A DNA stretch of 64,000 bases from an uncultured Gammaproteobacteria bacterium. Its GTDB lineage: Bacteria; Patescibacteriota; Microgenomatia; Levybacterales; UBA12049. Position 1 is the first letter of the stretch. Every line of letters begins with the position of its first letter. The notes beneath the pieces were generated by a model, which had not been told where the DNA came from, made no database searches, and worked only from the letters and a program-made list of their open reading frames with translations. The stretch spans positions 2,591 to 66,590 of the forward strand of contig CAZEJU010000006.1 of NCBI GenBank assembly GCA_964512695.1, read 5' to 3'. Positions 34,062 to 55,298 of the stretch are shown here, piece after piece. Both the position numbers and the translations under genes were made by a program.

Positions 34062-34065
34062 CATT

Positions 34066-35247: not shown

Positions 35248-35850
35248 ATGTTAGTTAAAAAATTAACAACAGGATTGGTTACAGCTGGTTTAGTAATGTC
35301 TGCATTTATTCCTGCGGCATCTGCTGATACAGATGTAACAGTCCAAGGAAATGGTGCAAATTCAGATTCAAAGGTTAAGGTCGATAATAGTAATGTCAAT
35401 GCCGTAGAACAAAAAAGTGTTACGAATGCAATGACAGTCGTCGAAGTAAACCAAAACACTGGTGGAAATACTGCCAATAATAATACAGGCAGTGCCGATG
35501 TCGATGTTACTAGCGGCCATGCTACGGCTACCGTTGTGACTTCTGTCACAGGTGGTAATAACCATGCTACATCTAACGGTTGTGGTTGTCCAGAAGGTGA
35601 TACTACAGTTACCGTTAAGAATAATGGAGCGAATTCAGACAATAAAGTTAAAGTAAATAACAGTAATGTTAACGTTTCTTCACAGAAATCAAAGACAAAT
35701 GCTGTAACAGTTGTCTCGCTCAAGCAAAAAACCGGTAAAAATAAAGCAAACGCAAATACAGGAGGAGGCAGTAAAACTGTCACATCCGGAAATGCGACAG
35801 CTGCAGTTTCTACAACTGTAACCGGAGGTTCAAATACATTAAATCCTTAA
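35248..35850 (+). CDS. Secreted tandem-repeat protein (2 x about 75-aa Asn/Gly/Thr-rich module); paralogue of 50506..55298 proteins
   Basis: RBS GAAAGGAGGTGA, Sec signal with an ASA cleavage site. Repeats: VTVQGNGANSDSKVKVDNSNVNAVEQKS.TNA.TVV...NTGGNTANNNTG...VTSG.ATA and VTVKNNGANSDNKVKVNNSNVNVSSQKS.TNAVTVV...KTGKNKANANTGGG...VTSGNATA. A CGCPEGD linker joins the repeats. Confidence 0.6.
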   Translation: MLVKKLTTGLVTAGLVMSAFIPAASADTDVTVQGNGANSDSKVKVDNSNVNAVEQKSVTNAMTVVEVNQNTGGNTANNNTGSADVDVTSGHATATVVTSVTGGNNHATSNGCGCPEGDTTVTVKNNGANSDNKVKVNNSNVNVSSQKSKTNAVTVVSLKQKTGKNKANANTGGGSKTVTSGNATAAVSTTVTGGSNTLNP

Positions 35851-35870
35851 TTACAAAGGACTTGTATTAA

Positions 35871-35907
35871 AAAAAACCCTGCCCGCATCCTGCGACAGGG
35901 TTTTTTT
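35871..35907. terminator. Bidirectional intrinsic terminator
   Basis: A6-CCCTGCCCGC atcct GCGACAGGG-T7. Confidence 0.6.
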
Positions 35908-35995
35908 ATGGCCGTAAAGGCTGAGCTTTCTTTTTAAAAAATAGTATGGTATTCTCTAACTAGAATTTTCTCGCTGTTTATAAAAAAACTAACAT

Positions 35996-36496
35996 ATGGA
36001 TTTCTCTCTACTAAATACAGTTCGATTTTCATTACTTTTAATTGTTACTTTTCTTATCTCAAGCACTTCTTTAGCATATGCTTCATCTAAGACTGAGGTA
36101 AACGTGTCAACAAATACAGGTAATAATACAGTTAATGGCCAAACAGTTGAGTCAAAGTCTGAAACCAGAATCATAATCAATGGAAAAGAGTATGTGAACG
36201 ACAATACTGGAAAATCATATGATATTGTGGAGGAAAATAATGAAGGTCGGATAGAAGTTCACGTCAATAGTAACAAATCAGATACAAAAACTCAGATAAA
36301 AAGTAATCAAGGTTCTACCACAACAGTAACCGTAACACCCAAGCCGACAAAGACAACAGAGGTCAAAAGCTCAATGACAAAGAAATCTGATCAAAAAGAG
36401 GAAATGAAGGCTGAAAAGAAAAGTATATTAGATTCGATAAAAGCCCAACTTGATGCATTCTTCTCATCAATTACCTCATTCTTCTCAAAAAAATAA
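35996..36496 (+). CDS. Hypothetical secreted protein (signal peptide; Asn/Thr/Lys-rich)
   Basis: Signal with an AYA cleavage site. Contains NTGNNTVNGQTVES, reminiscent of the repeat family. Confidence 0.4.
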   Translation: MDFSLLNTVRFSLLLIVTFLISSTSLAYASSKTEVNVSTNTGNNTVNGQTVESKSETRIIINGKEYVNDNTGKSYDIVEENNEGRIEVHVNSNKSDTKTQIKSNQGSTTTVTVTPKPTKTTEVKSSMTKKSDQKEEMKAEKKSILDSIKAQLDAFFSSITSFFSKK

Positions 36497-37042
36497 TTCG
36501 TTTTCTTTAAGAATACCCACTACAACAAACCTATGACTGTCAAGAAAGCCAGTACAGGTATACAACGTTATTCTTTTATCCTGAGACTGTTTTAATACAG
36601 AAACCTGATCAGGGGTTACTGTAGCTGTATAATGAACATCAAATTTATATTTTTTATTATCTTCACTCGTAATTATTATTTCCTCTCCTATTTTAATTTT
36701 AGGAAGCTTACCTAATAAGTTCGGCCAATTATGACCATAAAGGATACTATTACCAGTCTCTCCTGGAACAGGGGAATGAATGAGATAAGAGACACCTTCT
36801 GTAGTTGCCTCCCACTCATTATTGATGATTTTTGATTGAATAATAGGTAGTACTATCTTAAGAGATGGAATTTCAATAGATGTGGGATTTGCTATTTTTT
36901 TAGAAGTTAAATTTGCTGTAACTTGGTGTGAATCTGCAAATGATATTCTGGTTGGTTTCGTTCTTTCAATAAACCCATAGCCTGCAAAAATATAGCAGTA
37001 TATTCCGAATATAATAAGGAATAGAGAAATTATTTTTCTCAT
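36485..37042 (-). CDS. Sortase family transpeptidase
   Basis: N-terminal TM, a conserved His region (ILYGHNWPN) and a TLxTC-type catalytic Cys motif (ITLYTCTG). Confidence 0.65.
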   Translation of the reverse strand: MRKIISLFLIIFGIYCYIFAGYGFIERTKPTRISFADSHQVTANLTSKKIANPTSIEIPSLKIVLPIIQSKIINNEWEATTEGVSYLIHSPVPGETGNSILYGHNWPNLLGKLPKIKIGEEIIITSEDNKKYKFDVHYTATVTPDQVSVLKQSQDKRITLYTCTGFLDSHRFVVVGILKENELFF

Positions 37043-37050
37043 AAGGGAGT

Positions 37051-37659
37051 TTATTTTCGATTCCAGCGAAGAAGAAAACCAGCAATGAATGAAACAGTTC
37101 CGATAACTATTAAGCTATATAAGAAACTAATATTACCCGTATTAGCTAAGCTTAGAACTGATTGAAGAGGATTTGTAGAACCAACATTATTTGATGAGCT
37201 GTTGGAACTAGAATTATTCTGACTTGGTGTAGGAGTTACTGTTGATTTACATGAGTAATCACGGTTTTTAGCAACATAAGGTCGAGGATCAAGACCCCAA
37301 GCACTACCATCAGCTATATAAATCCATCCTTCATTTTTTAAAACTTTAATCTCTTCTTCTGTATAATTGGAAGCTTTAAGCCAATTTGTCTGAACTCCAT
37401 TTCCGTTTTCTGGACAGAAACATTGCATTACTTGATCATTACCAGATAACTGATAGACTGTATCACTTCCACGTTTTTCTTCGTATTGGCCAGGAACACC
37501 ATGTGTACCAGTTGCATAATGAGATTTTACTGTTCCTTGCGGATTGACACAGGAAGGAAATGTAGGAGTTGAAGTCGCTTCAGCCGCAGGCGTAGCTGTC
37601 GCAAAGAAAACAACATGTAAAACAAAAGCAATGAGAATAGTAGCGTACTTTGGACTCAT
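37051..37659 (-). CDS. Sortase-substrate surface protein with a non-canonical LANTG sorting signal
   Basis: Signal peptide. C-terminal LANTG + hydrophobic helix ISFLYSLIVIGTVSFIAGFLL + basic tail RWNRK. Immediately upstream of the sortase on the same strand. Confidence 0.5.
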   Translation of the reverse strand: MSPKYATILIAFVLHVVFFATATPAAEATSTPTFPSCVNPQGTVKSHYATGTHGVPGQYEEKRGSDTVYQLSGNDQVMQCFCPENGNGVQTNWLKASNYTEEEIKVLKNEGWIYIADGSAWGLDPRPYVAKNRDYSCKSTVTPTPSQNNSSSNSSSNNVGSTNPLQSVLSLANTGNISFLYSLIVIGTVSFIAGFLLRWNRK

Positions 37660-37713
37660 AATATATATTTATAGGATTATAACTTATATCCTATAAAAAT
37701 GCAAGAGGTAACA

Positions 37714-38994
37714 TTATAAGTTGAAAGGGGAGGTAAAGAGTCTAATCAGCCTGGCAAACAATGATCTATTTTTGTTTTCAGGGTTAGTACCATCATTTTC
37801 TAACGTTATTGTTTGCAATTTTTGAGTATTGTCAATTACAACAGTTTTTTTATTATAACCTGGTGCTTTAACCTCTATAGTTTGTGAAGAGAGAAGGTAG
37901 GGGATTTGAAATGTACCGTTCTTGGCTGGATTATAGGTTTTTTTATTCACTGTAATAACAGCATCTGTAATTGGGAAATTTTCATTATCCACTATTTTTC
38001 CTTTTATTATCTGATGAGAGTAAAAGTTTTTAAGAACTTCTGCACCTTTACGAGGAACCCCATTTGCTGCCCATAGAGCTGTACTACCTCCGACATTCAC
38101 CCAATAATTTATACCAATTACTTCCGTTGTCGTTGAAAGCTTAGCAAATGTTTCTGCTAGCCAGATTGCTTGTTGTTCTTCGGTCATGTTTCCATGAATA
38201 TCTGGTATAGGCGCTCCCATTTCTCCTAATACGACTTTTCCAGCTCCTCGTTTCGCGTATTCTTTAATATCCTCAATTAGTTTGTCTGGTGAACCGACAT
38301 AATGGTCTATAGTAATAACACCATCTAAAGCTTTTACCATAGCTTTATCCATAACTAAACGAGCAACATCTCCATTCATAGAGTAATAATTTGCTATAAC
38401 ATCTTTCTTAATCTGTTTAAATGCTGCTTTTGTAATTTTATATTCGTTAATTAAGAACTGCCTGAACTTATAAACATCGCCATATCTAGGATCTCCTGGA
38501 CCACCGTTTTCACATTCTGGACATGAAGTAAAGATATCCCCATCTTCAAAGAGTTCTGGATTATTTAGAATAAATTGCTCGATTTTTTGTGTATGTTCTG
38601 CTTCTGTGACTTTGCCATACCCAAACCAACCCTCCCAACCAGACAAATTACCTCGAAACCAAACGCTTAAGCCATATTTTCGTGCAGTCGATACCCAACG
38701 TTTCATAAATGGAATAAATTCTTCATCATAAGGTGTCGAAATTGAAACGTGAGACGCTCCTAAATATGCAATCTGGCTTACTTGTTTTTCAATAACAGCA
38801 TCAAATGATGTATCTGAAAGTTTCTCACGAGCTACATCTCTTGAGTATTTCATGGTATCTACTGCACGGACTGGAATAGGATGTACTGCATCAGACATAG
38901 TGGCATATACTTGAACATAAAAAATTATGCTTATTACAGCAAATAAGATAAAGATTACTATTTGTCTTTTCATAAAATATTTCATACGTATCAT
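37714..38994 (-). CDS. Putative membrane-anchored glycoside hydrolase (TIM-barrel, clan GH-A-like); last gene of the polysaccharide operon
   Basis: N-terminal TM. Candidate nucleophile region VVLGEMGAP and upstream FTSCPECENGG (candidate acid/base). The family is not assignable by eye. Confidence 0.3.
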   Translation of the reverse strand: MIRMKYFMKRQIVIFILFAVISIIFYVQVYATMSDAVHPIPVRAVDTMKYSRDVAREKLSDTSFDAVIEKQVSQIAYLGASHVSISTPYDEEFIPFMKRWVSTARKYGLSVWFRGNLSGWEGWFGYGKVTEAEHTQKIEQFILNNPELFEDGDIFTSCPECENGGPGDPRYGDVYKFRQFLINEYKITKAAFKQIKKDVIANYYSMNGDVARLVMDKAMVKALDGVITIDHYVGSPDKLIEDIKEYAKRGAGKVVLGEMGAPIPDIHGNMTEEQQAIWLAETFAKLSTTTEVIGINYWVNVGGSTALWAANGVPRKGAEVLKNFYSHQIIKGKIVDNENFPITDAVITVNKKTYNPAKNGTFQIPYLLSSQTIEVKAPGYNKKTVVIDNTQKLQTITLENDGTNPENKNRSLFARLIRLFTSPFNL

Positions 38995-40610
38995 TATAAT
39001 CTACCGAGGGTTGGTTTTGTGACGAGGTCTTTTACATAAGCATTTTTTAACTGATATATGTCTGCAAATGGATAGGATTCTACCAACTCATATTTTTCTA
39101 AATGACCTGACTGTTTAACAAGTTTAAATGTCATATCATTGTTGTCATTGGTACGCATAATGATCCAACGCGCCCATACATCTGGTCGAGCTATAGCTTT
39201 ATCCCAGTACTTACCAGTTCCTTCATGAATGAATCTAGCCATAGGAAGCCCAGAAGAGAAAATAATAGCATCATGAGAAGCAGCAGATATTAAAACAAAA
39301 CCTTCTTTTTTCTCAGCATTCTCTCGTAACCAACCACTTACCTCTGTAACGTTTTTTCCTGAAGCTCCATATCTGGCATCATCAAGTGTTACTGCATCAT
39401 TACTTATATGAGAGATAATAACGACAAAAGATAAAAGTCCCAGGAGAACAGGTCGAATCGCAGTTGCTCTATGGAAAAGATATCCCACAAATATCGCGAT
39501 TGATGGCATCATTAAGATTCCATACCGAATATTAAACCATGAATTACCTGATAAACCTTGAATGAAAAGTACTGAATGTCCTAAGAATAAGGCAATAACA
39601 TTAAACATAAAAGGAGAAAGCAGTGCTAACGCTGCGTATCGTAAGCGCATAGGAATTTTCTTATCTAACCAGAGAAGACCTCCCCCTATAACACCTAAGA
39701 GCATAAGGAAAGTCCCAGAATTATAATTAACAGCATACGTATAATACTGCAATGACAATACCAAGTTACTTTTTGTTATTAAGTTTCCTGCAGATTCTAA
39801 TTGTTTCTGTTGAGCGCGTGCTGAATAAGGTCCAAATGCGAAATATAAAGGATCTTTAAAGATTAGCAAGTTCCAGACAAACCATAAAAGTATTCCAAAG
39901 CTTGCCATAGTACAGAAAAAGATAGCAACACCTTTTGCAGTTTTAAAGCCGTACTTTCTAAGGACAAATAAGACAACCATGCCAAAACTGAATAAGAAAA
40001 GAAACCACCCATCATAACGGATAAGAGTTGAAAGCATAATCCAAAAAGAAGCCATAATAAGAGAGAGAATTTTTTCATCTTTAAACCACATTAATAGCTC
40101 ATATACACCGATAGTCATAGTAGCCATCAGAAGTAATTCAGTCATAGCTGTAGATTGAAGGTAAAGTACGTTTAAGTTAGTAGCAAAAACTAACATACCC
40201 ACTGTACTTCCTAAAAGCCCTACACCTAATCTCCGTAAAAACAGAAAGATAATAACACTTACTGCTAAATAAGAAGACATAGATTGAATTGCCCCGCTTA
40301 GACCAGAATGCCACATGAAGTTACTCCAGATAGTTGGGACCATAAGTAAATGGGGAAGAGGTAACCATACACTTCCAAGTTGCGCAAATCCAGGTTTTAA
40401 ACCCTCTACAACGCGTCTCCCGATATTAAGATGGGATCGAGCATCGTTATACGCAAGCCCCATGCCATTTAAGTAGAAAACCAGAAAAGACGCAACTGAG
40501 AAAATAGATAGTACCCAAAATAACATAAACAACAGTCTCTTTTCTTCAGCATTAGGATAGTATCGTAATTTTAGAACAGGTAAAAATATGCGTATATTTG
40601 GAAATTTCAT
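38994..40610 (-). CDS. Polytopic membrane protein, GT-C-like putative glycosyltransferase (ArnT/PMT-like)
   Basis: About 13 TM helices. The first extracytoplasmic loop carries an acidic motif, AYNDARSHLNIGRRV. Start and stop overlap the neighbouring genes. Confidence 0.3.
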   Translation of the reverse strand: MKFPNIRIFLPVLKLRYYPNAEEKRLLFMLFWVLSIFSVASFLVFYLNGMGLAYNDARSHLNIGRRVVEGLKPGFAQLGSVWLPLPHLLMVPTIWSNFMWHSGLSGAIQSMSSYLAVSVIIFLFLRRLGVGLLGSTVGMLVFATNLNVLYLQSTAMTELLLMATMTIGVYELLMWFKDEKILSLIMASFWIMLSTLIRYDGWFLFLFSFGMVVLFVLRKYGFKTAKGVAIFFCTMASFGILLWFVWNLLIFKDPLYFAFGPYSARAQQKQLESAGNLITKSNLVLSLQYYTYAVNYNSGTFLMLLGVIGGGLLWLDKKIPMRLRYAALALLSPFMFNVIALFLGHSVLFIQGLSGNSWFNIRYGILMMPSIAIFVGYLFHRATAIRPVLLGLLSFVVIISHISNDAVTLDDARYGASGKNVTEVSGWLRENAEKKEGFVLISAASHDAIIFSSGLPMARFIHEGTGKYWDKAIARPDVWARWIIMRTNDNNDMTFKLVKQSGHLEKYELVESYPFADIYQLKNAYVKDLVTKPTLGRL

Positions 40611-40615
40611 AGTTT

Positions 40616-42142
40616 TTATGTACGTCTCCTTTCATAAAGAACATGGAATGCATACATTGTTATACTCGTCAAAATAATGCACGCAGCTATTAGAAATACG
40701 TAAGAATATGCAGACCAGCTGTTTTTTAAGAAAAGATTATAAATTAGCGAGCTGACCATATTATCGTCTACAAGCTGTAAATTATATTCATATGTATATG
40801 GAATAGGCTTCATAAGACTCATTGCTTCTTGTTTTGGAGGGATTGCAGCAGTTGTTACGACACCGAGAACATTTACAAAAACACTATACACAAAAGAAAC
40901 AAAGAAAAATAATGTAAAAATTACATTTTTATAGAATCTTTGAATAGCAATACTGGTCATAACTGCTAGTATGGCTGCAGACGGAATAAGATATCGTGGC
41001 CCAAATGCCCACCCCCCCCATGGATCACCGAACATCGAATAAAGAATAATATTTACACCCACTAATGATAAGAGTACGTTTATAAAAGTTACGTTTCGTT
41101 TTTTATTATATAAGATGATAAATCCCAGAATTCCAAAAAGTATTACCGGACTATAATATAACCAGGCTCTCTCGTTGCTTAAGAGTAAAACATTCATACC
41201 TTGTACCTGCAGCCGCGATTGGAAAGGAAATAAAGATTTTTTATCTTTCGCTCCACTTGCTATAGTTGAGGTCGAAGTTTGCTTTTTCCCAAATACCTGT
41301 TGGTAATCAGTACGTCCAATTGTTTGCCCAGTCTTTAAAAGAGAACCTGTAGTGGTTTTATTGTACCAAGCAAAAAGCGACATAAAAGGTAATACTCCAA
41401 TAACTATTGTGAGAATGGAAGTTCTACATGTTATGAGGAATGACTGTCTTACTTTTTCCAGTGAAAAGTGTTTTATGACTATGTAGGAAGCAATTGGAAA
41501 TAAAAGTATTATATTAGGAATGTCAACAAGAATAGCGAATCCCAGAATACATCCAAACAAGACATTTTTAACTATAGTTCTTTCTCCGATGGCATTTCGC
41601 AAGGCTAGAAGAATAAGCAATGTGGTTACATGATGTTGCGTGTATGTATTAGCGTAAGTTAATGCATTTGTTGCAAAAAGAAAAATAAGACCTCCAATAT
41701 ATGCTGTATATTTATTTGCTCCCAGTGACCTACTAATTGACGTTATAAGAAACATATTAGCTAAAGCTATCAAGGTTATCGAAAAAAAGGTAAAGAGCTG
41801 CGGCATAGAGAGAAATCTGCCAAAAAAATAAAAAGGAATACCTATAAGCGATACACCCGGTGTGAAAATAGTGTAAAATCTTTTTTTATAATAAACCAAA
41901 TCCGGTGAGGCGAATTTTGCTTGCTGGTTCGTAAAGGATAAAGAATGATTTTCCACTATAGCTTCGGTGAGCGCGTATCGGGAGGTACTGTTAGAAGCTT
42001 CATACGGTCCACCAACGTTCGTCGCTTTTTCTTTCTGGTAGGCAATAGGATTCCCTTTATCACCTTTTACAGTAAGTAAAAGAATAAGCAGTGGAATTAT
42101 AACCATACAGATTTTTGTTAAGAATTGGAATAGTCTTTTCAT
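40616..42142 (-). CDS. Polytopic membrane protein, GT-C-like putative glycosyltransferase
   Basis: About 12 TM helices with an N-terminal loop RYALTEAIVENHSL. Operon context. Confidence 0.3.
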   Translation of the reverse strand: MKRLFQFLTKICMVIIPLLILLLTVKGDKGNPIAYQKEKATNVGGPYEASNSTSRYALTEAIVENHSLSFTNQQAKFASPDLVYYKKRFYTIFTPGVSLIGIPFYFFGRFLSMPQLFTFFSITLIALANMFLITSISRSLGANKYTAYIGGLIFLFATNALTYANTYTQHHVTTLLILLALRNAIGERTIVKNVLFGCILGFAILVDIPNIILLFPIASYIVIKHFSLEKVRQSFLITCRTSILTIVIGVLPFMSLFAWYNKTTTGSLLKTGQTIGRTDYQQVFGKKQTSTSTIASGAKDKKSLFPFQSRLQVQGMNVLLLSNERAWLYYSPVILFGILGFIILYNKKRNVTFINVLLSLVGVNIILYSMFGDPWGGWAFGPRYLIPSAAILAVMTSIAIQRFYKNVIFTLFFFVSFVYSVFVNVLGVVTTAAIPPKQEAMSLMKPIPYTYEYNLQLVDDNMVSSLIYNLFLKNSWSAYSYVFLIAACIILTSITMYAFHVLYERRRT

Positions 42143-42154
42143 ATCTTATAATAA

Positions 42155-49113: not shown

Positions 49114-49116
49114 AAT

Positions 49117-49332: not shown

Positions 49333-49858
49333 AAAAGTACCGGGCAGGTATTCTATTCATGCTACTTTACACAAAAAACACATCCTATAGAAGATGAGTT
49401 TAAGATTTCTTTATATAGCATATATAGGCTTATACTGTCAAGCTTTAACTATAATTTGGTTATAGTAAGTTATACTAACTTAACTATTCTATTAGTTATT
49501 TATACTCTTTTCTGTACGTAAACTTACAAATTGATACAGTGTTACTTATTGACAAGATAAGATTATTTTCTCACTATATATGTATACGAATTTTTTAATT
49601 TAAATACTTCGAATTAATGCTAAGTTAATTTTTATAAATGTGAACATATGAGGAATGTTCTCATTCGAATAGATTCGTACAAGAGGGGGTGATGATATGG
49701 CAGTAAATAAAAAAACACAAAAAGCTCAACCTAAGAAGATACACCATAAAGTTGCAAATCATTTGGAGAAACCCGTTAGTACATTATTCGGATATACGAT
49801 CATACTTATGTTCTTAGTTGCAACGCTTGTAATTCTCGCAACCTATTTTTAGTTGAAT

Positions 49859-50421
49859 TTATTCTTGTTTGGCAAAAATAAGCAATCGTTTTAAAGATGT
49901 ACCTATTGGTGTACATGTTTGTACGATTAATTGATCTTTATCTAAATTTTCCAAAAATTCGGTTTCGTTAGGCCAAACTTCTTTTTTATCAAAAACAAGA
50001 AAACGATAGTCTTTTTTCTTATATCTTAGAAAAATTATGTCGTTTTTTTGTAATTCTCCTAATCGAAAGAAGATTGTGTTATACCTAGATATCTCCCAAG
50101 GCGAACCAGATGAATGAGCAAACAAATATATCGTACCTCTAGTTCCGGGTAAAGCACTCCCTTTTGCATGTGCAACTCCTTTTTTTAAAGCTTCATTATA
50201 TATTTTCTCATTCCATGGATCGACTTTTTCCACTATAGGAGCATATGCATGAATTTTTGGAATGGCAATCGTAGTACCTTCAGATATGGCTGGTTTGACA
50301 GGCTGGGTTAAGGGGGGAAATATGTATATTTTTATAATTGGATAAAATGTGTAAAGAAGTCCAACTATCGATACTATAATTAAAAAATTGCTGAAATAAT
50401 AAAGAATTTTCGGATTTTTCA
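49859..50421 (-). CDS. Sortase family transpeptidase
   Basis: The track ORF extends to a TTG at 50464; the first ATG (MKNPKILYYF) is at 50421. N-terminal TM, a His region (LFAHSSGSPW) and catalytic LIVQTCTP (TLxTC). Confidence 0.65.
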
Positions 50422-50462
50422 TGAACTTGGGAATGATTCTACAGAAAAGCAGGAAAATTAGC

Positions 50463-50492
50463 AAAAAAAACCCCGCTTGTGGCGGGGTTTTT
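50463..50492. terminator. Bidirectional intrinsic terminator between the LPATG gene and the sortase gene
   Basis: A8-CCCCGC ttgt GGCGGGG-T5. Confidence 0.6.
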
Positions 50493-50505
50493 GCTACAAC
50501 AGAAC

Positions 50506-51654
50506 TTATACTGTTGCTGGTGATCTTCCAGATCGCAGTCTTAATGTCACACCCAGAAAAAACATTGCAATATTTCCGATGAGAAATAGTAAGAGGTTAT
50601 AGTTTCCAGTTGCGGGTAAAATCTTCTGGATTGATGTTCCAAGCACATCTCCACCTTTACCATTACTCGAAGATTTCGATTCTGAAGGTTTGGAGTCAGA
50701 AGTTGACGGAGGCGTAGTGGGTTGCACACCACCGGTAGGAGGTTTTTGCTCTTCTGGCTTTTCCTCACAGCACGTTACTTTTGCGATATTTACATTTATT
50801 GGTCCATTTACAACTTTTGCAAAATAGAAAATATCGCCAGTTTCTATTGTTACATTCGATTTTGTGTTGTTATTTGCTATGTTATTTCCAGTATCTAAAA
50901 TCCAAAGAATATCATTTATAATATTTGCAGTATTATTAACTGTTATATCATTATTTACATTATGAGTAATTGAAGCATTATTTTGCGAAGCAGAACCATT
51001 TCCTTTAATCGAAATAGCATAATTTTTATTAGTATTTAATGTAGACTCTTGATAGTTTATATTTAATGGACCGTTTGTAATTTTCTCTACGACAGTAATG
51101 TTTCCTGTTTTTATATAAACATTTCCGCTGGAATTACTGCTTCCTGTATTTCCGCCAGTGTTAGCTATTCCACGAATTGTATTCGTTATAGAAAGTGTGT
51201 TTGTACCAGTACTTACTGAGGATTGTGTTCCATTAAGAGTAATACTATTATCTGAGTCCGTGCCATTATTAGTGATTGTTGTAGAAGTTTGTCCCACCTC
51301 GCAGCATCCTGCAGTAACTATGTTAGCGTTTCCTGTATTTGTAACGTCGGTGGTGATATCTACGTCACCAGTGTCTACTCGCGAGTCGCCACCTGTCGTA
51401 TCTGAAACCGAGTTACCTCCAGTTGTACCAGAGATAGTAAAATTGTTTGAAGTATCCTGAGTATTCGATTGTGAACTTTCATTTACTTGCGTGGACGATG
51501 ATTGAATATCATTAGTAGAATTACTACCATTCCCTGCTATAACTACTTCATTTGCCAGAGCTAATCTGGAACTTGAAATAAGTATGAACATTACTATAAA
51601 GCCTCGATATATCATCTGATAGAATTTTTTATGAAAAAACATTTTTGTAAACAT
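50506..51654 (-). CDS. LPATG-anchored tandem-repeat surface protein (repeat family paralogue)
   Basis: Signal peptide. Repeat modules (AGCCEVGQTSTTITNNGTDSDNSITLNGTQSSVSTGTNTLSITNTIRGIANTGGNTGSSNSSGNVYIKTGNITV and similar). Ser/Pro/Thr-rich stalk. C-terminal LPATG + TM + RLRSGRS. Confidence 0.6.
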   Translation of the reverse strand: MFTKMFFHKKFYQMIYRGFIVMFILISSSRLALANEVVIAGNGSNSTNDIQSSSTQVNESSQSNTQDTSNNFTISGTTGGNSVSDTTGGDSRVDTGDVDITTDVTNTGNANIVTAGCCEVGQTSTTITNNGTDSDNSITLNGTQSSVSTGTNTLSITNTIRGIANTGGNTGSSNSSGNVYIKTGNITVVEKITNGPLNINYQESTLNTNKNYAISIKGNGSASQNNASITHNVNNDITVNNTANIINDILWILDTGNNIANNNTKSNVTIETGDIFYFAKVVNGPINVNIAKVTCCEEKPEEQKPPTGGVQPTTPPSTSDSKPSESKSSSNGKGGDVLGTSIQKILPATGNYNLLLFLIGNIAMFFLGVTLRLRSGRSPATV

Positions 51655-51706
51655 ATAAAATAACTGGCAGAAAGTCAGTAATGCTACTTACAAGAGGCAG
51701 GGATAT

Positions 51707-54046
51707 TTATTTTCGAAATTTTGGTAATAATATTCTCTTAGTGGCGAAGAAACCTATAAATGGTAGTAGTAAGAGCAGCCATGCCAGATTTATTCGTACT
51801 TTTGTTTTTGTATCTGTTTCTCCAAGTACTGCACTAGCGACAACTGCCTTTTTCTTTACTGTAGGATTTGTTTTAGCTTTGGCTGCTAATACTGCATTAC
51901 TGCTACCACTAGCTTGAGTATTATGCGTTGTTTGTTTATTAGCAACTGCATACGCTTGAATTGGGGTGGGTTGCTGTGTAGGTGTTACTTGAGTTTTTGC
52001 TGTATTTTTTGTTGTTTTCTGACTATTGTTGCTATTTGACTCATTACTATTTGATGGACCACCTATAGCTTGTTGAGTTTGCTTTTTCTCTTCTTGTTTT
52101 TGGCCAGGTGATACGAAATCACCCATCCAGTTACCAAACACATTTACTACTGTCACAAATAGCTTTCCACTACCAACTATATTATTATTCACGAAGTTTA
52201 CTAAATTAGCTACGATTTTCGCATCGCCTGTTTTGATTTGTGAATTTCCACCTGTATTATCATTTGTCTGGTTACCACCTGTATTTGCGCTTAGTTGAAG
52301 TGTATTGTTTACATTAGCATCATTATTCTGGATCGTTGTGTTTGTATTGGATTGATCGACAGAGGATGTATTATTCGAACCAGAGCCGTTGCCGTTATTT
52401 GATGCTGTTATATATCCGTTTTGATCTACATTAAATTCAGTTCCTTGTGATCCTGCGAAGTTTGCTCCTTCAGGCGCACCTAGAATCTTACCAATCCAAT
52501 TACCTGCTTCATTAACAATTACTAACCACATATTACCACCCACCAGATTCGTATTAGCGACATTAAGAACATTAGCATCCACGTATGTATCTCCTGTTGT
52601 TACTGACGAGTCACCGCCTGTGTTTCTACTTGCATCATTATTTCCTGTTTGTGCGTCAAAAACGAGTGTATTGGTTAGATCAGCATCATTATTTTGGAAC
52701 GTATTTGATGAATTTTCTACATTCACATCACTTGTATTAGTTGACCCTGAACCGTTATTTTTATTTGCTACATTTGTTTGTGAACCGCAGCAAGAGTTCA
52801 TAGCAGATTCTGGGAAAAGAATATCTCCTATGAGATCACCAAATATATTAACAACTGCATAAACTACATCTCCAGCTATATTATTGTTCGCGAACGTTAA
52901 AGCATTTGCAGAGACATTTGCATCTCCTGTAGTGATGTTTGAATCTCCACCCGTGTTCCTACTTGCTTCATTGTTACCTGAGTCAGCACTAAGAATAAGT
53001 TCACTTCCGATAGTAGCATCATTATTTTGGAATGTAACATTATTATTTTTAGTTTGTAAGTCTGCGTCATTTACAGAATTACTACCATTACCTGTATTTG
53101 CAACACTTGTATCTCCAGTACCGCAACCTGAAACACAGTTAGCCGCGAAATCCAGTAAAATATCTCCTACGTGATCATCGGCGATATTAAATTCGGAAAC
53201 CATAACTCCATCCACGTTTGTGTTTACAGCTGTAATAACTGTTCCAGTTACATTTGCATCACCTGTTTTTATAGAAGAATCACCTACATTATCAGATGTT
53301 GTATTTGCACCAGATACAGCATCTTGTACAAGTTTCGTATTTACATTTGCTGTATTCACTTGATTGGTTGTTGAGTTGTTTCCAATCGTTGCGGAACCAT
53401 TGTTGTTTGATTGCGTTCCATTACCACTATTTATAATACTTGCTCCTTGGCCTGATCCTGTAGGAGAAGCTGATGCATTTTGATTTCCTATTGTTGCGAC
53501 AGTAGCTGTGCTTGTAGCATCTCCAGTTTTAACTTCAGATGTTCCAGTCTGCCCATTCTGTGCAGTACCAGCTGTAGCATTCGCAGTTGCGGGAGCAGTA
53601 GGCATAGGAATAACTGGTGTCGGAACTGCTGCAGCTTCAGCAAACGACTTTGCTTGCTTTAGCGCTTCACGATATTTTCGCGCAGCATTATCTACTTCAT
53701 CTGCATCTCCATCATAGTCATCATCACCATCGATATCTAAGTTATCATCATTATTTGTTTGGGCCGGAGTAGGGGAAACTGATTGCTGTGTCTCCTGGGT
53801 TGTTGACTGCGTGGAAGACTGGCTAACGCTCTGTTCACTTTGTGTTTGGTTACTTTGTTCATTTGAAACTGATTGCTCAGGTGTAGGAGACACAGCTTCT
53901 TCTGCAAAAGCATACGATCGTGATTGAACGAAAATTTGTATAACTATTAATAGTACTGCAATGTATTTTTTAATATTCATAGTAATCTTAACTTTCTCAA
54001 TAATTTTCTCTTGATATCGTGGGGTGTACGGAAGTGCTCGTATCAC
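51707..54046 (-). CDS. 779-aa secreted tandem-repeat surface protein (repeat family), C-terminal TM anchor
   Basis: Signal MNIKKYIAVLLIVIQIFVQSRSYAFA; an acidic DxD stretch (DDDNLDIDGDDDYDGDADEVD). At least 5 modules, each opening with a Cys pair (NCVSGCGTGDTSVANTGNGSNSVNDA, SCCGSQTNVANKNNGSGSTNTSDV, GCGTGDTS...) and ending TGDANV/TGDTYV. C-terminal hydrophobic helix + KRILLPKFRK. Confidence 0.55.
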   Translation of the reverse strand: MIRALPYTPRYQEKIIEKVKITMNIKKYIAVLLIVIQIFVQSRSYAFAEEAVSPTPEQSVSNEQSNQTQSEQSVSQSSTQSTTQETQQSVSPTPAQTNNDDNLDIDGDDDYDGDADEVDNAARKYREALKQAKSFAEAAAVPTPVIPMPTAPATANATAGTAQNGQTGTSEVKTGDATSTATVATIGNQNASASPTGSGQGASIINSGNGTQSNNNGSATIGNNSTTNQVNTANVNTKLVQDAVSGANTTSDNVGDSSIKTGDANVTGTVITAVNTNVDGVMVSEFNIADDHVGDILLDFAANCVSGCGTGDTSVANTGNGSNSVNDADLQTKNNNVTFQNNDATIGSELILSADSGNNEASRNTGGDSNITTGDANVSANALTFANNNIAGDVVYAVVNIFGDLIGDILFPESAMNSCCGSQTNVANKNNGSGSTNTSDVNVENSSNTFQNNDADLTNTLVFDAQTGNNDASRNTGGDSSVTTGDTYVDANVLNVANTNLVGGNMWLVIVNEAGNWIGKILGAPEGANFAGSQGTEFNVDQNGYITASNNGNGSGSNNTSSVDQSNTNTTIQNNDANVNNTLQLSANTGGNQTNDNTGGNSQIKTGDAKIVANLVNFVNNNIVGSGKLFVTVVNVFGNWMGDFVSPGQKQEEKKQTQQAIGGPSNSNESNSNNSQKTTKNTAKTQVTPTQQPTPIQAYAVANKQTTHNTQASGSSNAVLAAKAKTNPTVKKKAVVASAVLGETDTKTKVRINLAWLLLLLPFIGFFATKRILLPKFRK

Positions 54047-54062
54047 CCCACGACTTTCAAGA

Positions 54063-55298
54063 TTAGTTTGCTTGATGGCCAGTTAGCCATTCAAGAAGAT
54101 CTCCTAGATCGAATGTGAAATCCAAATCTAAGTCGAGATCATCACCATCCATGTCTTCGGCTGCGCCGTAGACATTCATGTTACCAGAATTAGTAGCTTT
54201 AACTCCTGCTTTCGCATTACCTGTCTCGACAGAAGGATCACTTCCATCCCAAGAGGTATTGTCGTCTGCATCGTTATCTCCGGTATCAAGATCGCCATCG
54301 ACATCGTTATCGAAGTCTGAGTCGTTATCTTGATCTACATCGAGATCTTCGTCGGTATCGACTGTGATTTCGCTGTCTGATTCTGTTCCATTACCTGAGA
54401 TTTTAGCTTCTAAATCTTCGAGGCAACCGCATGAATCAACATCTGCCCAGTTAAAGTTAGCCATGTTGTCAAGGATAACTGTTAAGTAAGCATAACCTGT
54501 GTCGACAGAAACTTCGCCACCTGTGTTGTCATCTGCATCGTTGTCTCCTGTTTCAGCATCGACATCGACATCATTGTCGAAGTCTGCATCATTATCTTGA
54601 TCTAAGTCAATATCATTATCGAAGTCGAGATCGACATCGTTGTCTGAATTTGATCCGTTACCAAGAATCATTGCGCTGACTGTACCACCTTCACCATTAC
54701 CTCCTCCAATCTTTGCAGAGTTGTAGTTAGCTTGGTTTGTGATACCTACTTTTACTGTACTGTCGCCTGTTTTAACTGAGACATCGCCACCGGTGTTATC
54801 ATCGGCGTCATTATCTCCAGTTTCAGCATCAACATCAACATCGTTATCGACATCTGCGTCGTTGTCTTGATCGACATCAACGTCATTATCGAAATCGAGC
54901 GTTGCATTGTTATCTGAGCCTGTTCCGTTTCCTGAAATTAAGACTTCAGAATCGTTTTGGCAACAAGATTCGACATCTGCCCAGTTGGAATTGAGTTTGT
55001 TCTCAATATCAACTAAAACAGTAGAGTCACCAGTTTTGACTTTTACGTCTCCACCAGTGTTGTCACTCGCACTGTTGTTACCTGTGTCAGCAGTGATGTT
55101 GATATCATTATCGACATCCGCATCATTATTCTGTGTTACATTAACATTGTGTGAGTAACTGACATCTGCATCGTTATCACTATTAGATCCGTTTCCAGAA
55201 ATTGTGATTGTTGCTGCTGATGCCATAGGTGCTAATGCGTTAAGTAAGACTGCTCCGGTCGCAATAGCTGTTGTTAATCTTTTTGAAAAATTTGTCAT
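54063..55298 (-). CDS. Secreted poly-acidic tandem-repeat protein (repeat family; Asp-rich DxD arrays, candidate Ca-binding)
   Basis: RBS AAGGGGGTGA. Signal peptide with an ASA site. Modules ISGNGSNSDNDADV...DNDADVDNDVDVDAETGDNDADDNTGGDVSVKTGDSTVKV are bracketed by CC/CGC motifs (VESCCQNDSEV, DSCGCLEDLEAKISGNGTESDSE). Confidence 0.55.
   Translation of the reverse strand: MTNFSKRLTTAIATGAVLLNALAPMASAATITISGNGSNSDNDADVSYSHNVNVTQNNDADVDNDINITADTGNNSASDNTGGDVKVKTGDSTVLVDIENKLNSNWADVESCCQNDSEVLISGNGTGSDNNATLDFDNDVDVDQDNDADVDNDVDVDAETGDNDADDNTGGDVSVKTGDSTVKVGITNQANYNSAKIGGGNGEGGTVSAMILGNGSNSDNDVDLDFDNDIDLDQDNDADFDNDVDVDAETGDNDADDNTGGEVSVDTGYAYLTVILDNMANFNWADVDSCGCLEDLEAKISGNGTESDSEITVDTDEDLDVDQDNDSDFDNDVDGDLDTGDNDADDNTSWDGSDPSVETGNAKAGVKATNSGNMNVYGAAEDMDGDDLDLDLDFTFDLGDLLEWLTGHQAN

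What the first reader, a model, noticed from the sequence alone, without database searches (positions are those of the whole stretch)
35248..55298. Paralogous family of Cys-bracketed Asn/Gly/Thr-rich tandem-repeat surface proteins (four genes)
Four ORFs share a roughly 60-75-aa module: (CC/CGC)-x-ISGNG-SNSDN-...-N-...-Q-NNDA-...-TG(G)N-A-(D)NTGG-...-V-TGDA-V. They are 35248..35850, 50506..51654, 51707..54046 and 54063..55298. Variants include an LPATG-anchored form, a 779-aa giant with a DxD acidic block, and a poly-Asp form that looks Ca-binding. The conserved Cys pair at module boundaries suggests disulfide-stapled beta-solenoid or beta-helix units. I cannot match the module to a named repeat family from memory, so it may be undescribed.
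Basis: partly seen in the sequence, partly recalled or inferred. Interest (0 to 1): 0.6.

Follow-up and report, generated by a model that had tools for sequence, protein, structure and literature searches.

The report
Unnamed giant-rung β-repeat surface proteins
Four neighbouring genes of an ultra-small (candidate phyla radiation, CPR) bacterium encode a large, conserved and unnamed family of secreted surface proteins, built from an 88-residue all-β repeat that probably stacks into an unusually wide, flat β-solenoid anchored to the cell by a dedicated sortase.

Summary
Exactly four ORFs (A 35248-35850, B 50506-51654, C 51707-54046, D 54063-55298) carry 2, 3, 4.5 and 4 copies of one module, well beyond compositional chance. 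Corrections: the module is about 88 aa (about 110 in C), not 60-75. The Cys pair closes alternate modules only and does not bracket each one. C probably starts at 53980. The module matches nothing in Pfam, NCBIfam or PDB sequences. It defines a family of at least 3,174 clusters at 50% identity, found only in CPR bacteria where the source organism is named, and always annotated "hypothetical". D-C-B-sortase is a conserved operon in 14-15 of 17 related genomes. B carries LPxTG, C a C-terminal membrane helix, D an acidic amphipathic tail, and A is the minimal form. A Parcubacteria genome has the same three-protein set without the cysteines. A confident AlphaFold model of D (pLDDT 83, pTM 0.75) has no structural analogue (TM below 0.1). 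Covariation over 1,300 modules indicates that each module is one long β-arch rung and that modules stack in register. Assembly into an anchored surface fibre or layer, and cation binding by D, are inferences. Disulfide stapling is untested.

The parts
54063..55298 (-). D: secreted 411-aa protein with a signal peptide and four modules (nt 54948-55214, 54684-54950, 54414-54680, 54138-54413). Cys pairs follow modules 1 and 3 (nt 54960-54965 and 54423-54431). It is 21% Asp and ends in a conserved acidic amphipathic tail, FDLGDLLEWL.
   Evidence: There are 571 or more orthologues at about 50% identity, all unnamed and without Pfam domains. AF2 gives pLDDT 83 and pTM 0.75. The tail is conserved. Net charge is -10 to -18 per module.
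51707..54046 (-). C: large paralogue (779 aa from the GTG; probably 757 aa from the ATG at 53980). It has a signal peptide, a low-complexity and acidic N-terminal region, a half module (53444-53593), and four full modules with a hydrophobic insertion of about 25 aa (53111-53443, 52772-53110, 52499-52777, 52079-52411). Then come a Ser/Thr/Gln-rich stalk and a conserved 'INLAW' motif, TM helix and basic tail. It has no LPxTG.
   Evidence: The C-terminal motif is conserved in 15 orthologues. The 720-800-aa class is common among the best hits of the exhaustive search.
50506..51654 (-). B: 382-aa sortase substrate with a signal peptide and three modules (51286-51552, 51022-51288, 50752-51021). CC pairs follow modules 1 and 3. 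Then come a Pro/Ser-rich stalk, LPATG (50605-50619), a hydrophobic segment and LRLRSGRSP.
   Evidence: LP[AVI]TG plus TM plus LRLRSGRSP is conserved in 13 orthologues.
49859..50464 (-). Dedicated sortase immediately downstream of B. The motif IVQTC holds the catalytic Cys.
   Evidence: Pfam Sortase PF04203, E = 1.7e-21. The best NCBIfam hits are class C/D but far below cut-off. A sortase follows the module genes in 15 of 17 related loci, directly after B in 14.
35248..35850 (+). A: minimal 200-aa paralogue with a signal peptide, module 1 (35329-35598), CGC (35581-35589) and module 2 (35602-35847). It has no anchor and no terminal extensions.
   Evidence: The roughly 200-aa two-module family has the Cys pair at least 90% conserved. 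An A-type gene lies on the opposite strand just past the sortase in 10 of the related loci. AF2 gives pLDDT 68.
55299..55768 (-). Operon leader. It holds a conserved promoter-like site (55710-55682, TTGACA-17-TATATT), the conserved box CUGACCGCACACGGAGGC running into a hairpin plus U-run (about 55649-55583), a second hairpin plus U-run (55447-55404), and a GGGGG ribosome-binding site.
   Evidence: The box is present in 17 of 18 loci, counting the window. The hairpin has 22 bp, six of them with compensatory changes. There is no Rfam match.
55769..56869 (-). Two conserved upstream neighbours: a 99-aa DUF2292 protein (55769-56068) and a 256-aa single-pass membrane protein of unknown family (56099-56869).
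   Evidence: Homologues of the 256-aa protein lie upstream of D in all 17 loci, and homologues of the 99-aa protein in 7. A functional link is inferred from synteny only.
33369..35013 (+). Conserved neighbours of A: a lamin-tail-domain (LTD) secreted protein (33369-34061) and a secreted protein with C-terminal RTX repeats (34027-35013).
   Evidence: Pfam LTD at 4.7e-14 and HemolysinCabind at 1.3e-18. An RTX homologue lies beside A in L002, L008, L011, L014 and L016, with an LTD homologue beyond it in L002, L011 and L016.

Best explanation
**What it is**
The four genes encode members of a CPR-specific, so far unnamed family of secreted cell-envelope proteins. They are built from 2 to 5 tandem copies of an all-β module of about 88 residues.

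**Most likely fold**
- Each module forms one very long β-arch 'rung'.
- A continuous strand of about 33 residues (module positions 12-44) packs face to face against positions 57-81, the linker and the first strand of the next module.
- Successive modules stack in parallel and in register.
- The result is a flat, two-sheet β-solenoid with a coil of about 88 residues. Small hydrophobic residues and Asn/Gln ladders face inward. Asp, Asn, Thr and Lys face outward.

**Most likely role**
- The operon D-C-B-sortase supplies a wall-anchored member (B, LPATG, attached by the adjacent sortase), a membrane-anchored member (C, C-terminal TM helix) and a free, highly acidic member (D). A is a minimal two-rung member encoded nearby.
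- A and B have no capping elements at their open β-edges.
- The proteins therefore most likely co-assemble by edge-to-edge β-stacking into an anchored surface fibre or layer of the ultra-small cell.
- The dense carboxylate faces of D would bind divalent cations or a partner surface.

**Shown versus inferred**
- Shown: family, module, anchoring signals, operon conservation, absence of known homologues or structural analogues, and the intra-module packing pattern.
- Inferred: in-register stacking (moderate support), co-assembly, cation binding, and any role for the Cys pairs.
For: **Module and paralogy**

**No named family or solved relative**

**Family size and taxonomy**
- 3,174 representatives at E <= 1e-3 and 790 at E <= 1e-30.
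- Every named source organism is a CPR bacterium, and every product is 'hypothetical'.

**Conserved operon and type-specific C-termini**
- Synteny across 17 loci.
- Type-specific C-termini.
- The same three-protein set in a Parcubacteria genome: an acidic four-module protein, a one-module LPAAG-anchored protein, and a nine-module protein with the insertion.

**Other attachment domains in distant members**
Distant members fuse the array to PG_binding_1, DUF11, fn3 or dockerin domains, which are other surface-attachment devices.

**Predicted structure**
- The D model has pLDDT 83 and pTM 0.75. All four modules have identical strand boundaries of 6, 33, 4 and 18 residues.
- The top Foldseek hits are all parallel β-helices or solenoids (antifreeze β-helix, pectate lyases, SufD, CsgA, FapC), but with TM 0.04-0.08.

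**Covariation**
- Direct-coupling analysis (DCA) on 1,300 modules shows a long anti-diagonal pairing positions 24-49 with 81-57.
- The coupling is restricted to one side-chain face. Each residue couples about equally to j and j+2, which indicates interdigitation.
- β1 pairs with positions 14-16 at exactly the register expected if the c-strand, linker and next β1 form one side of a closed coil.
- In 138 D orthologues, core positions covary with the same position of the adjacent module more than with the module two away (23 of 31 positions, p = 2e-4). Outward positions show the reverse (Mann-Whitney p = 9e-5). The signal is at offset 0 only.
- Linker position 86 couples to positions 19 and 23 of the next module.

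**Plausibility of extracellular disulfides**
Sortase is near-ubiquitous in Microgenomates, and MdbA-like and VKOR disulfide-forming proteins are enriched in CPR (PMC6744442).
Against: - I could not inspect the model coordinates. The stacking geometry is inferred from DSSP strings, the nature of the Foldseek hits and covariation.
- AlphaFold is known to favour solenoids for repeats.
- Same-position covariation between repeats is confounded by concerted evolution. Only the inward/outward contrast argues for physical contact.
- A cluster of couplings between the GNGS loop (positions 8-11) and the DNTGG turn (51-57) does not fit a flat coil. I attribute it to subfamily or co-loss effects, but that is not proven.
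- There is no expression, localisation or assembly evidence.
- A plank only four rungs thick and about 110 Å wide is physically unusual.
- Only B has a sortase signal, and D carries a C-terminal helix that might cap the stack and prevent polymerisation.
Confidence: 0.5

Rival explanations
1. The fold is the same stacked long-rung β-solenoid, but there is no co-assembly. Each protein acts alone as a rigid, non-polymerising surface 'plank'. It would serve as an adhesin, a spacer or a cation-binding coat element, displayed by a sortase anchor (B), a membrane anchor (C) or non-covalent association (A, D).
For: - Distant members are single long polypeptides with 5-10 modules fused to their own attachment domains (PG_binding_1, dockerin, DUF11), as expected for stand-alone surface proteins.
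- D has a conserved C-terminal helix that could cap the stack.
- C has an N-terminal half module and helix that could also act as a cap.
- No chaperone or nucleator-type accessory genes were recognised nearby.
Against: - A is only two rungs with no caps at either end, which is unlikely to be stable alone (AF2 confidence is lower).
- The strict co-occurrence of three or four paralogues with distinct, conserved termini in one locus across Microgenomates and Parcubacteria suggests a multi-component structure.
Confidence: 0.25
2. The modules are not stacked in parallel. Each module is a long antiparallel β-hairpin or meander, and the protein is an elongated rod, a twisted sheet or a long narrow barrel.
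For: - The DCA anti-diagonal (sum 105-108) is also what an H-bonded antiparallel hairpin gives.
- In a meander, both neighbours of a strand would map onto the same anti-diagonal of the module-collapsed map, which could explain the double line.
- Continuous DSSP strands of 33 and 18 residues are atypical of classical solenoids.
- All structural superpositions fail, with rmsd above 40 Å.
Against: - Outward-facing cross-strand pairs show no coupling at all.
- Invariant inward-facing Gln and Asn (Q28, N30, N36, N72) are explained by ladders in a parallel stack but not in an antiparallel sheet.
- Every top Foldseek hit is a parallel β-helix. None is an antiparallel barrel, sandwich or single-layer sheet.
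- Adjacent-module, same-position, core-specific covariation.
- pTM of 0.75 for four modules.
Confidence: 0.12
3. This is a classical Gram-positive-type covalent pilus. The paralogues are pilins polymerised by the adjacent pilus-specific (class C) sortase through LPxTG-to-lysine isopeptide bonds.
For: - An operon of three paralogous secreted proteins followed by a sortase resembles spaABC-srtA-type pilus loci.
- The best NCBIfam model for the sortase is class C.
Against: - Only B has an LPxTG signal. C and D orthologues consistently lack one.
- There is no conserved lysine or pilin motif in the module alignment.
- There are no Cna-B, Ig-like or pilin HMM hits.
- The class C score is 56 bits against a cut-off of 160.
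- The predicted strands are far too long for Ig-like pilin domains.
Confidence: 0.05
4. The repeats are low-complexity Asn/Gly/Thr-rich sequence without a defined structure, and the similarity is compositional.
For: The composition is strongly biased: N 12-15%, G about 10%, T 8-15%, and D 21% in D.
Against: - Scores are far above shuffles.
- The module has invariant columns.
- Orthologues are about 50% identical across CPR lineages.
- There is strong, geometrically coherent covariation.
- The AF2 model is confident.
Confidence: 0.01

Closest known systems
Curli (CsgA major subunit and CsgB nucleator) and Pseudomonas FapC functional amyloids
   Same: - Secreted, Asn/Gln/Gly/Ser-rich tandem repeats.
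- Each repeat is a β-arch rung, and the rungs stack in register into a two-sheet β-solenoid with polar ladders.
- Paralogous subunits with different roles are encoded together.
- CsgA and FapC structures are among the top (non-significant) Foldseek hits.
   Different: - The rung is about 88 residues, against about 19-23 in CsgA and about 35-45 in FapC.
- There is no Curlin_rpt or Fap HMM match and no sub-repeat inside the module.
- TM-score is below 0.1.
- There are no CsgEFG or FapF-type secretion genes. Anchoring is by sortase or a TM helix in a monoderm-like CPR envelope.
- Polymerisation has not been shown.
Streptomyces chaplins (long sortase-anchored ChpA-C plus short secreted ChpD-H)
   Same: - A family of paralogues sharing one module.
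- Longer members are wall-anchored through a sortase signal, and short members are secreted and carry a conserved Cys pair.
- Together they build a surface fibre layer.
   Different: - The chaplin domain is about 40 aa and hydrophobic, whereas this module is 88 aa and polar or acidic.
- There is no HMM match.
- The analogy rests on architecture only.
Sortase-assembled Gram-positive pili (SpaA/SpaB/SpaC type)
   Same: A locus of three paralogous secreted proteins followed by a dedicated sortase, with one member carrying a canonical LPxTG, hydrophobic segment and basic tail.
   Different: - Only one of the paralogues has a sorting signal.
- There is no pilin motif or conserved Lys and there are no Ig-like or CnaB domains.
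- The sortase class is unresolved.
Ca2+-dependent β-helical antifreeze/adhesin domain MpIBP RIV (PDB 3p4g) and other parallel β-helices
   Same: Repetitive β-solenoid with flat, regular arrays of Thr, Asn and Asp side chains. It is the best Foldseek hit for the D model (E = 0.04).
   Different: - TM-score is 0.04-0.05 and rmsd is above 40 Å, so the fold is not the same.
- There is no RTX or GGxGxD motif in the four proteins. The RTX hit is in the neighbouring gene 34027-35013 only.
Bacillus TasA/camelysin fibres
   Same: Secreted fibre-forming proteins of monoderm bacteria. A camelysin/TasA-like gene (32099-32671) lies in the same surface-protein neighbourhood.
   Different: The four proteins have no Peptidase_M73 match. 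TasA is a globular jelly-roll that polymerises by strand donation, not a tandem-repeat solenoid (established knowledge).

Membership tests
Curli subunits (Pfam PF07012 Curlin_rpt) | Match to the Curlin repeat HMM | tested here: not met
   No Curlin_rpt hit for any of the four proteins, even at E <= 1.
Curli subunits (Pfam PF07012 Curlin_rpt) | Tandem strand-loop-strand repeats of about 19-23 residues | tested here: not met
   The repeat unit is 88-90 aa. Comparing the module profile with itself (hhalign) finds no internal sub-repeat.
Curli subunits (Pfam PF07012 Curlin_rpt) | Dedicated csgEFG-type secretion and assembly genes in the locus | tested here: not met
   Neighbours scanned with Pfam and NCBIfam are sortases, RTX, LTD, glycosyltransferases, DUF2292 and housekeeping genes. 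No Csg-like proteins were found.
Parallel two-sheet β-solenoid (architecture, not a sequence family) | Successive repeats stacked in parallel and in register, with β-arch rungs and inward side-chain ladders | tested here: inconclusive
   Support comes from AF2 strand periodicity and pTM 0.75, from exclusively β-helix-type Foldseek hits, from one-face interdigitated DCA couplings and coil-closure register, and from adjacent-module core covariation. Coordinates could not be inspected, and no superposition with a known solenoid succeeds (TM below 0.1).
Sortase-anchored (LPxTG) cell-wall proteins | C-terminal LPxTG, hydrophobic segment and basic tail, plus an N-terminal signal peptide | tested here: met
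   B only: LPATG at residues 346-350, followed by NYNLLLFLIGNIAMFFLGVTL and RLRSGRS. The signal is conserved as LP[AVI]TG in 13 orthologues. A, C and D lack it.
Sortase-anchored (LPxTG) cell-wall proteins | A cognate sortase is encoded | tested here: met
   ORF 49859-50464 matches Pfam Sortase at E = 1.7e-21 and sits directly downstream of B. A sortase follows the module genes in 15 of 17 loci, directly after B in 14. Actual cleavage and attachment cannot be tested here.
Sortase-polymerised Gram-positive pilins | All subunits carry sorting signals, and the major pilin has a pilin-motif lysine | tested here: not met
   C and D orthologues have no LPxTG. No conserved Lys column appears in the module or protein alignments.
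Sortase-polymerised Gram-positive pilins | Ig-like, CnaA or CnaB pilin domains | tested here: not met
   There are no such Pfam or NCBIfam hits. The predicted strands of 33 and 18 residues are incompatible with Ig-like domains.
Sortase-polymerised Gram-positive pilins | Class C (pilus-specific) sortase | tested here: inconclusive
   The best NCBIfam model is class_C_sortase at 55.9 bits against a cut-off of 160. Class D scores 53.1 bits.
RTX / β-roll Ca2+-binding repeats (PF00353) | GGxGxDxUx nonapeptide repeats | tested here: not met
   No HemolysinCabind hit in A-D. The hit (1.3e-18) belongs to the neighbouring ORF 34027-35013.
Right-handed parallel β-helix / ice-binding β-solenoids | Structural superposition on a solved member | tested here: not met
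Chaplins (PF03777) and TasA/camelysin (PF12389) | HMM match to the family domain | tested here: not met
   No hit in A-D. PF12389 hits only the neighbour 32099-32671.

The most novel reading that the evidence does not exclude
CPR bacteria possess their own kind of surface polymer, a 'concatenated cross-β' fibre or sheet. Each 88-residue module would be a giant amyloid-like rung, and four specialised paralogues would stack edge to edge:
- a wall-anchored base (B);
- a membrane-anchored base (C);
- a minimal uncapped propagating unit (A);
- an acidic, helix-capped terminal unit (D).

The structure would be optionally locked by Cys pairs at alternate rung junctions. It would form the envelope layer or attachment structure that these ultra-small episymbionts use to contact hosts or minerals. 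The rung would be three to four times longer than in any described β-solenoid.
Probability: 0.25. Interest if true: 0.8.

Novelty: new variant of a known kind. Interest (0 to 1): 0.62.

Why it matters
CPR/Patescibacteria make up a large share of bacterial diversity, live attached to other cells, and have envelopes about which almost nothing molecular is known beyond type IV pili.

This is a very large family (thousands of clusters at 50% identity). It is strongly conserved, carries no annotation, and sits in a conserved sortase operon in Microgenomates. The same three-protein set is present in one Parcubacteria genome.

If it forms the predicted wide, flat β-solenoid polymer, two things follow:
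- It would be a new structural solution for bacterial surface fibres or layers, and a candidate for the surface layer seen on these cells by cryo-EM.
- It would extend the known range of β-solenoid geometry.

It also gives a concrete, expressible target. A is 175 residues once the signal peptide is removed, which makes it practical for structural work on organisms that cannot be cultured alone.

Tried and rejected
- **Curli-like sub-repeats.** I suspected the module might be four rungs of about 22 aa. Comparing the module profile with itself found no sub-repeat, so I rejected this.
- **Strongest DCA couplings.** The couplings 8-28, 28-77, 9-53 and 32-75 looked like contacts. They proved to be joint loss of motif residues in about 50 degenerate modules, so I did not use them as contacts.
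- **GNGS loop to DNTGG turn couplings.** These pairs (10-51, 11-51, 10-53) do not fit the flat-coil model. They look like differences between A-type and D-type modules, but this remains unresolved.
- **PDB sequence search.** The module profile found only a chance ThreeFoil hit at E = 0.78.
- **Rfam on the operon leader.** Nothing matched.
- **Literature.** Searches on CPR or Microgenomates combined with sortase, LPXTG, amyloid, β-solenoid or AlphaFold found no description of the family.
- **DUF11 and DUF7507 annotations.** In distant homologues these are separate C-terminal domains and do not overlap the module.
- **Covalent pilus and low-complexity readings.** Both rejected; see the rival explanations.
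Full report

The four ORFs are present exactly as described: A 35248-35850 (+, 200 aa), B 50506-51654 (-, 382 aa), C 51707-54046 (-, 779 aa) and D 54063-55298 (-, 411 aa). The window has low GC (0.32-0.40).

All-against-all BLAST gives multiple staggered matches between every pair. The best scores are 74-170 bits, against 30-50 (maximum 63) for shuffled sequences of the same composition. Four of the six pairs remain significant with SEG masking and composition-based statistics. The similarity therefore goes beyond Asn/Gly/Thr/Asp richness.

Cutting the proteins into units and aligning 13 copies gives a module of about 88-90 aa. Its invariant positions are N9, G10, S13, G46, N48, G64 and N79. 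Its consensus is I-x-GNGS-x-SDN ... Q-x-NDA ... TG-x-N-x-A-x-DNTGGD-x-x-V-x-TGDA ... N-x-N ... CC/CGC. The period, however, is 88 aa and not 60-75. In C each unit is 110-120 aa because of a hydrophobic insertion (VVNxFGxWxGD).

A sensitive HMM scan of every reading frame of the window finds the module in these four ORFs only: 2 + 3 + 4.5 + 4 copies.

Every cysteine of the four proteins lies in a C-x(0-3)-C pair at the C-terminal end of a module, but only of some modules: A1; B1 and B3; C1 and C2; D1 and D3. 'Cys-bracketed' therefore overstates it.

**2. What family is it?**

Pfam-A and NCBIfam give no hit above noise for any of the four. The same searches readily annotate the neighbours: two sortases, an RTX-repeat protein, a lamin-tail-domain protein and glycosyltransferases. 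A profile of the module finds nothing among PDB sequences.

An exhaustive HMMER search of 1.84 billion cluster representatives finds 3,174 proteins at E <= 1e-3, 2,199 at 1e-10 and 790 at 1e-30. Two size classes are common among the best hits: 400-440 aa with 4-5 modules (D-like) and 720-800 aa with 5 modules (C-like).

Word-indexed searches add about 40 two-module proteins of roughly 200 aa (A-like) and more than 570 D orthologues at about 50% identity. None has a Pfam domain. Every name given by a source is 'hypothetical protein', apart from one evidently spurious 'SNF2/RING' label.

The named source organisms are Levy-, Davies-, Woese- and Gottesmanbacteria, 'Microgenomates group', 'Patescibacteria group', Parcubacteria and Berkelbacteria. 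Several related MAGs are titled 'uncultured Gammaproteobacteria', yet they carry the same Microgenomates-type locus. The window is therefore from a Levybacteria-like member of the Microgenomates.

Literature searches found no description of these proteins. The closest relevant statements come from PMC6744442. It reports that sortase is nearly ubiquitous in Microgenomates, that 35 mostly hypothetical families are enriched there, and that MdbA-like oxidoreductase and VKOR, which form extracellular disulfides, are enriched in CPR.

**3. Genomic context**

In 17 related genomic loci the order is: 256-aa membrane protein, (99-aa DUF2292 protein), D, C, B, sortase. D has 4 modules and typically 4 Cys. 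C has 4-5 modules. B has 3 modules and an LP[AVI]TG signal in 13 loci. The order is essentially invariant. In ten loci an A-type gene (2 modules) lies on the opposite strand just past the sortase. In five of these an RTX homologue sits beside it, and in three an LTD homologue lies beyond that.

In the window, this second block (LTD 33369-34061, RTX 34027-35013, A 35248-35850) is separated from the sortase (49859-50464) by about 14 kb. That stretch carries a small secreted protein, a second sortase with an LANTG substrate, and a glycosyltransferase/polytopic-membrane block. Two relatives also have the 1,585-aa multi-glycosyltransferase after the sortase.

Gaps within D-C-B-sortase are 16-82, 52 and 41 nt, which indicates an operon. 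Upstream of D there is a 470-nt leader with a conserved promoter-like site and conserved hairpins (see section 8).

Each protein type has its own conserved C-terminus:
- B ends in a Pro/Ser stalk, LPxTG, a hydrophobic segment and LRLRSGRSP.
- C ends in a Ser/Thr-rich stalk, an 'INLAW' motif, a TM helix and a basic tail. It has no LPxTG and matches no NCBIfam sorting-signal model.
- D ends in an acidic stretch and an amphipathic FDLGDLLDxL.
- A stops at the end of module 2.

A Parcubacteria contig repeats the three-protein set in a different order. It has an acidic four-module secreted protein with no cysteines, a one-module protein with a Pro/Thr stalk and LPAAG plus TM plus RRRNR, and a nine-module protein with the C-type insertion.

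More distant members attach the module array to PG_binding_1, DUF11, fn3 or dockerin domains. These lie C-terminal to the modules and do not overlap them.

All of this points to an extracellular, envelope-attached structural role. It also shows that the set of acidic free, sortase-anchored and large forms is old within the CPR.

**4. Fold**

AlphaFold2 on A with 35 sequences gave a moderate model (pLDDT 68, pTM 0.47). D with 112 orthologues gave a confident one: pLDDT 83, pTM 0.75, and 220 residues at 90 or above.

The D model is all-β. The same four strands recur in every module, with lengths 6, 33, 4 and 18 residues. The Cys-containing linker and the GNGS and DNTGG segments are the only loops.

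I therefore tested the topology from sequences.

*Intra-module packing.* I extracted about 1,400 module instances from 365 proteins and ran mean-field direct-coupling analysis on 1,300 unique modules (effective number 1,125).
- The dominant physical signal is a long anti-diagonal linking positions 24-49 with 81-57. Examples are 34-74, 36-72, 38-68/70, 40-66/68, 42-66 and 49-57/59, with z of 3.6-6.7.
- It involves only the side-chain face that carries A, V, I, N and Q.
- Each residue couples about equally to two partners two residues apart.
- The outward D/N/T/K face shows no coupling.
- The residue pairs show size compensation, for example I-A, V-V, V-L, F-A and L-G.
- This is the pattern of two strands packed face to face (a β-arch with interdigitated side chains), not of an H-bonded hairpin.

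*Coil closure.* β1 (positions 3 and 5) couples to positions 14 and 16, a sum of about 20. That equals the main anti-diagonal (about 105) shifted by one module length (about 85). So the c-strand, the linker and the next module's β1 together form one continuous side, about 39 residues long. This side faces the long strand, which spans about 36-39 residues. That is the closure condition for a two-sided coil.

*Stacking between modules.* In 138 non-redundant D orthologues, same-position mutual information between modules is high everywhere, which fits concerted evolution. The two faces behave differently, however.
- Outward positions follow duplication history, with modules 1-3 and 2-4 highest.
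- Inward core positions covary most between adjacent modules: 23 of 31 positions, Wilcoxon p = 2e-4.
- The inward/outward contrast has Mann-Whitney p = 9e-5, and the signal is confined to offset 0.
- Linker position 86 of module 2 couples to positions 19 and 23 of module 3, where the closure model puts it.

*Other points.* The invariant inward-facing Q28, N30, N36, N72, N75 and N77 are readily explained as Asn/Gln ladders. The module has no internal sub-repeat.

*Conclusion on the fold.* My best reading is a flat, two-sheet parallel β-solenoid in which each 88-residue module is one rung. From general β-strand geometry this would be roughly 11 nm wide and 0.48 nm per rung. By my recollection of the β-solenoid literature, which I did not check here, described coils are about 12-45 residues, so this one would be several times longer.

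*Caveats.* These are AlphaFold's bias towards solenoids for repeats, the confounding of inter-repeat covariation by gene conversion, and an unexplained set of couplings between the GNGS loop and the DNTGG turn. I attribute that last set to subfamily effects. An antiparallel meander remains possible (about 12%).

**5. The cysteines and the aspartates**

The Cys pair is highly conserved by position within Microgenomates. It follows module 1 in 98% of A-type proteins and modules 1 and 3 in 93-96% of B and D, and it follows modules 2 or 4 in 0-7%. Its spacing varies (CC, CGC, CxxC, CCC, CCxC). The Parcubacteria D-like protein has no cysteine.

The cysteines are thus an add-on at alternate rung junctions and not a determinant of the fold. 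In a stack, the two pairs in one protein would be two rungs apart. They could form local C-x-C disulfides, inter-subunit disulfides or a metal site. This could not be tested here.

D modules carry a net charge of -10 to -18 each, and the Asp residues occupy the outward face of the long strands. Divalent-cation binding or electrostatic adhesion is a reasonable inference. There is no RTX motif and no experimental support.

**6. How it most likely works**

*Shown.* These are signal-peptide proteins with three different retention modes, encoded with a dedicated sortase in a conserved operon.

*Inferred.* B is covalently attached to the wall. C is tethered to the membrane through a long stalk. A and D are released. 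The open β-edges of uncapped solenoids (A at both ends, B at its N-terminal end) let the paralogues stack edge to edge into an anchored ribbon or layer. D's C-terminal helix, and C's N-terminal half module and helix, may act as caps or terminal elements.

The closest functional analogies are curli (CsgA/CsgB) and the chaplins, which combine long sortase-anchored members with short secreted, Cys-containing members. Membership of those families was tested and is not met.

The main rival (about 25%) is that each protein is a stand-alone surface plank or adhesin with no co-assembly. A covalent sortase-built pilus is unlikely, because only B has a sorting signal and there is no pilin lysine or Ig-like domain.

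**7. Novelty and score**

The family is real, very large, strongly conserved, found only in CPR bacteria where the source is named, and entirely unannotated. Its confidently predicted structure has no analogue in the PDB or BFVD.

The general kind is known: repetitive β-solenoid-type surface proteins with sortase anchoring. The rung size, the multi-paralogue operon and the restriction to CPR make it a new variant. I do not regard it as a categorically new system.

Interest is moderate to high (0.62). A specialist in CPR biology or β-solenoid and amyloid structure would want to see this expressed and imaged, but function and assembly remain inferred.

**8. Side observations**

The leader of the operon contains a conserved promoter followed by the box CUGACCGCA(A/C)ACGGAGGC. 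The box forms the 5' arm of a hairpin followed by a U-run and is present in 17 of the 18 loci, counting the window. In 11 distant loci the hairpin is 22 bp, its lower ten pairs are invariant, and six upper pairs show compensatory changes. There is no Rfam match. It may be a 5' stabilising stem-loop, an attenuator or a small RNA.

Noticed in passing
window 55299-55768 (- strand); also L001-L017 upstream of the D orthologue: The operon leader is conserved. It has a promoter-like CTTGACAA-N17-TATAtT, then the box CUGACCGCA(A/C)ACGGAGGC forming the 5' arm of a long hairpin plus U-run. The box is present in 17 of 18 loci, counting the window. In 11 distant loci the hairpin is 22 bp, its lower 10 bp are invariant, and six upper pairs show compensatory changes. 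Close relatives have a second hairpin plus U-run (window 55447-55404). There is no Rfam match. It could be an attenuator, a 5' mRNA stabiliser or an sRNA.
   Followed up: partly
window 51707-51830 (C-terminus of C) and C orthologues in L001-L016: There is a conserved juxtamembrane motif '(K)x(I/L)NLAW' followed by a TM helix and a Lys/Arg-rich tail. This is the three-part layout of a sorting signal, but it matches no known one (no NCBIfam hit). It may be a plain anchor or an unrecognised sorting signal.
   Followed up: partly
window 54063-54140 (C-terminus of D) and D orthologues: D has a conserved acidic amphipathic tail, FDLGDLL(D/E)xL, predicted helical at low confidence. It may be a solenoid cap or a docking peptide.
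   Followed up: no
window 32099-35013: A run of secreted-protein genes lies next to A. It includes a camelysin/TasA-like protein (PF12389, 32099-32671), an unassigned 192-aa ORF, a lamin-tail-domain protein (33369-34061) and a protein with C-terminal RTX repeats (34027-35013). RTX homologues (five loci) and LTD homologues (three loci) lie beside A-type genes in other genomes.
   Followed up: partly
window 35996-37659: There is a second sortase (36485-37042, TLYTC motif). Next to it is a Cys-containing 202-aa protein ending in LANTG, a TM segment and RWNRK (37051-37659), which looks like a second sortase-substrate pair. A 166-aa secreted Asn/Thr/Lys-rich protein without the module lies at 35996-36496.
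   Followed up: no
window 37714-49113: An 11-kb block on the minus strand lies between the operon's sortase and the A cluster. It includes a 1,585-aa fusion of GT2 and GT4 glycosyltransferase domains with a large polytopic membrane region, a 734-aa GT4 protein with a C-terminal extension that has no Pfam match, and two polytopic membrane proteins without Pfam hits. The 1,585-aa gene follows the sortase in L001 and L003 but not in the other loci that extend far enough past the sortase. Glycosylation of the Ser/Thr/Asn-rich surface proteins is conceivable but untested.
   Followed up: no
L018 7867-13552 (Parcubacteria contig JACQLU010000009.1): Three module proteins lie in a row: a four-module acidic protein without Cys, a one-module LPAAG-anchored protein, and a nine-module protein whose N-terminal region has repeated 'PYC...AQGC(F/Y)QG' Cys motifs. 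The module motif is the variant N-TGA(D/G)S-x-N in place of GNGS-x-SDN. No sortase lies within 10 kb.
   Followed up: partly
L003, L006-L009, L011, L013-L016 (record titles): These MAGs carry the Microgenomates-type D-C-B-sortase locus but are titled 'uncultured Gammaproteobacteria bacterium'. The taxonomic labels in the public records are probably placeholders or errors. One D orthologue (P0217) is named 'SNF2 domain/helicase domain/RING finger domain-containing protein', which is evidently spurious.
   Followed up: no
window 24001-26000: There is a local GC peak (0.467, against 0.32-0.40 elsewhere) around the ORF at 24380-25573 (-). It was not examined.
   Followed up: no
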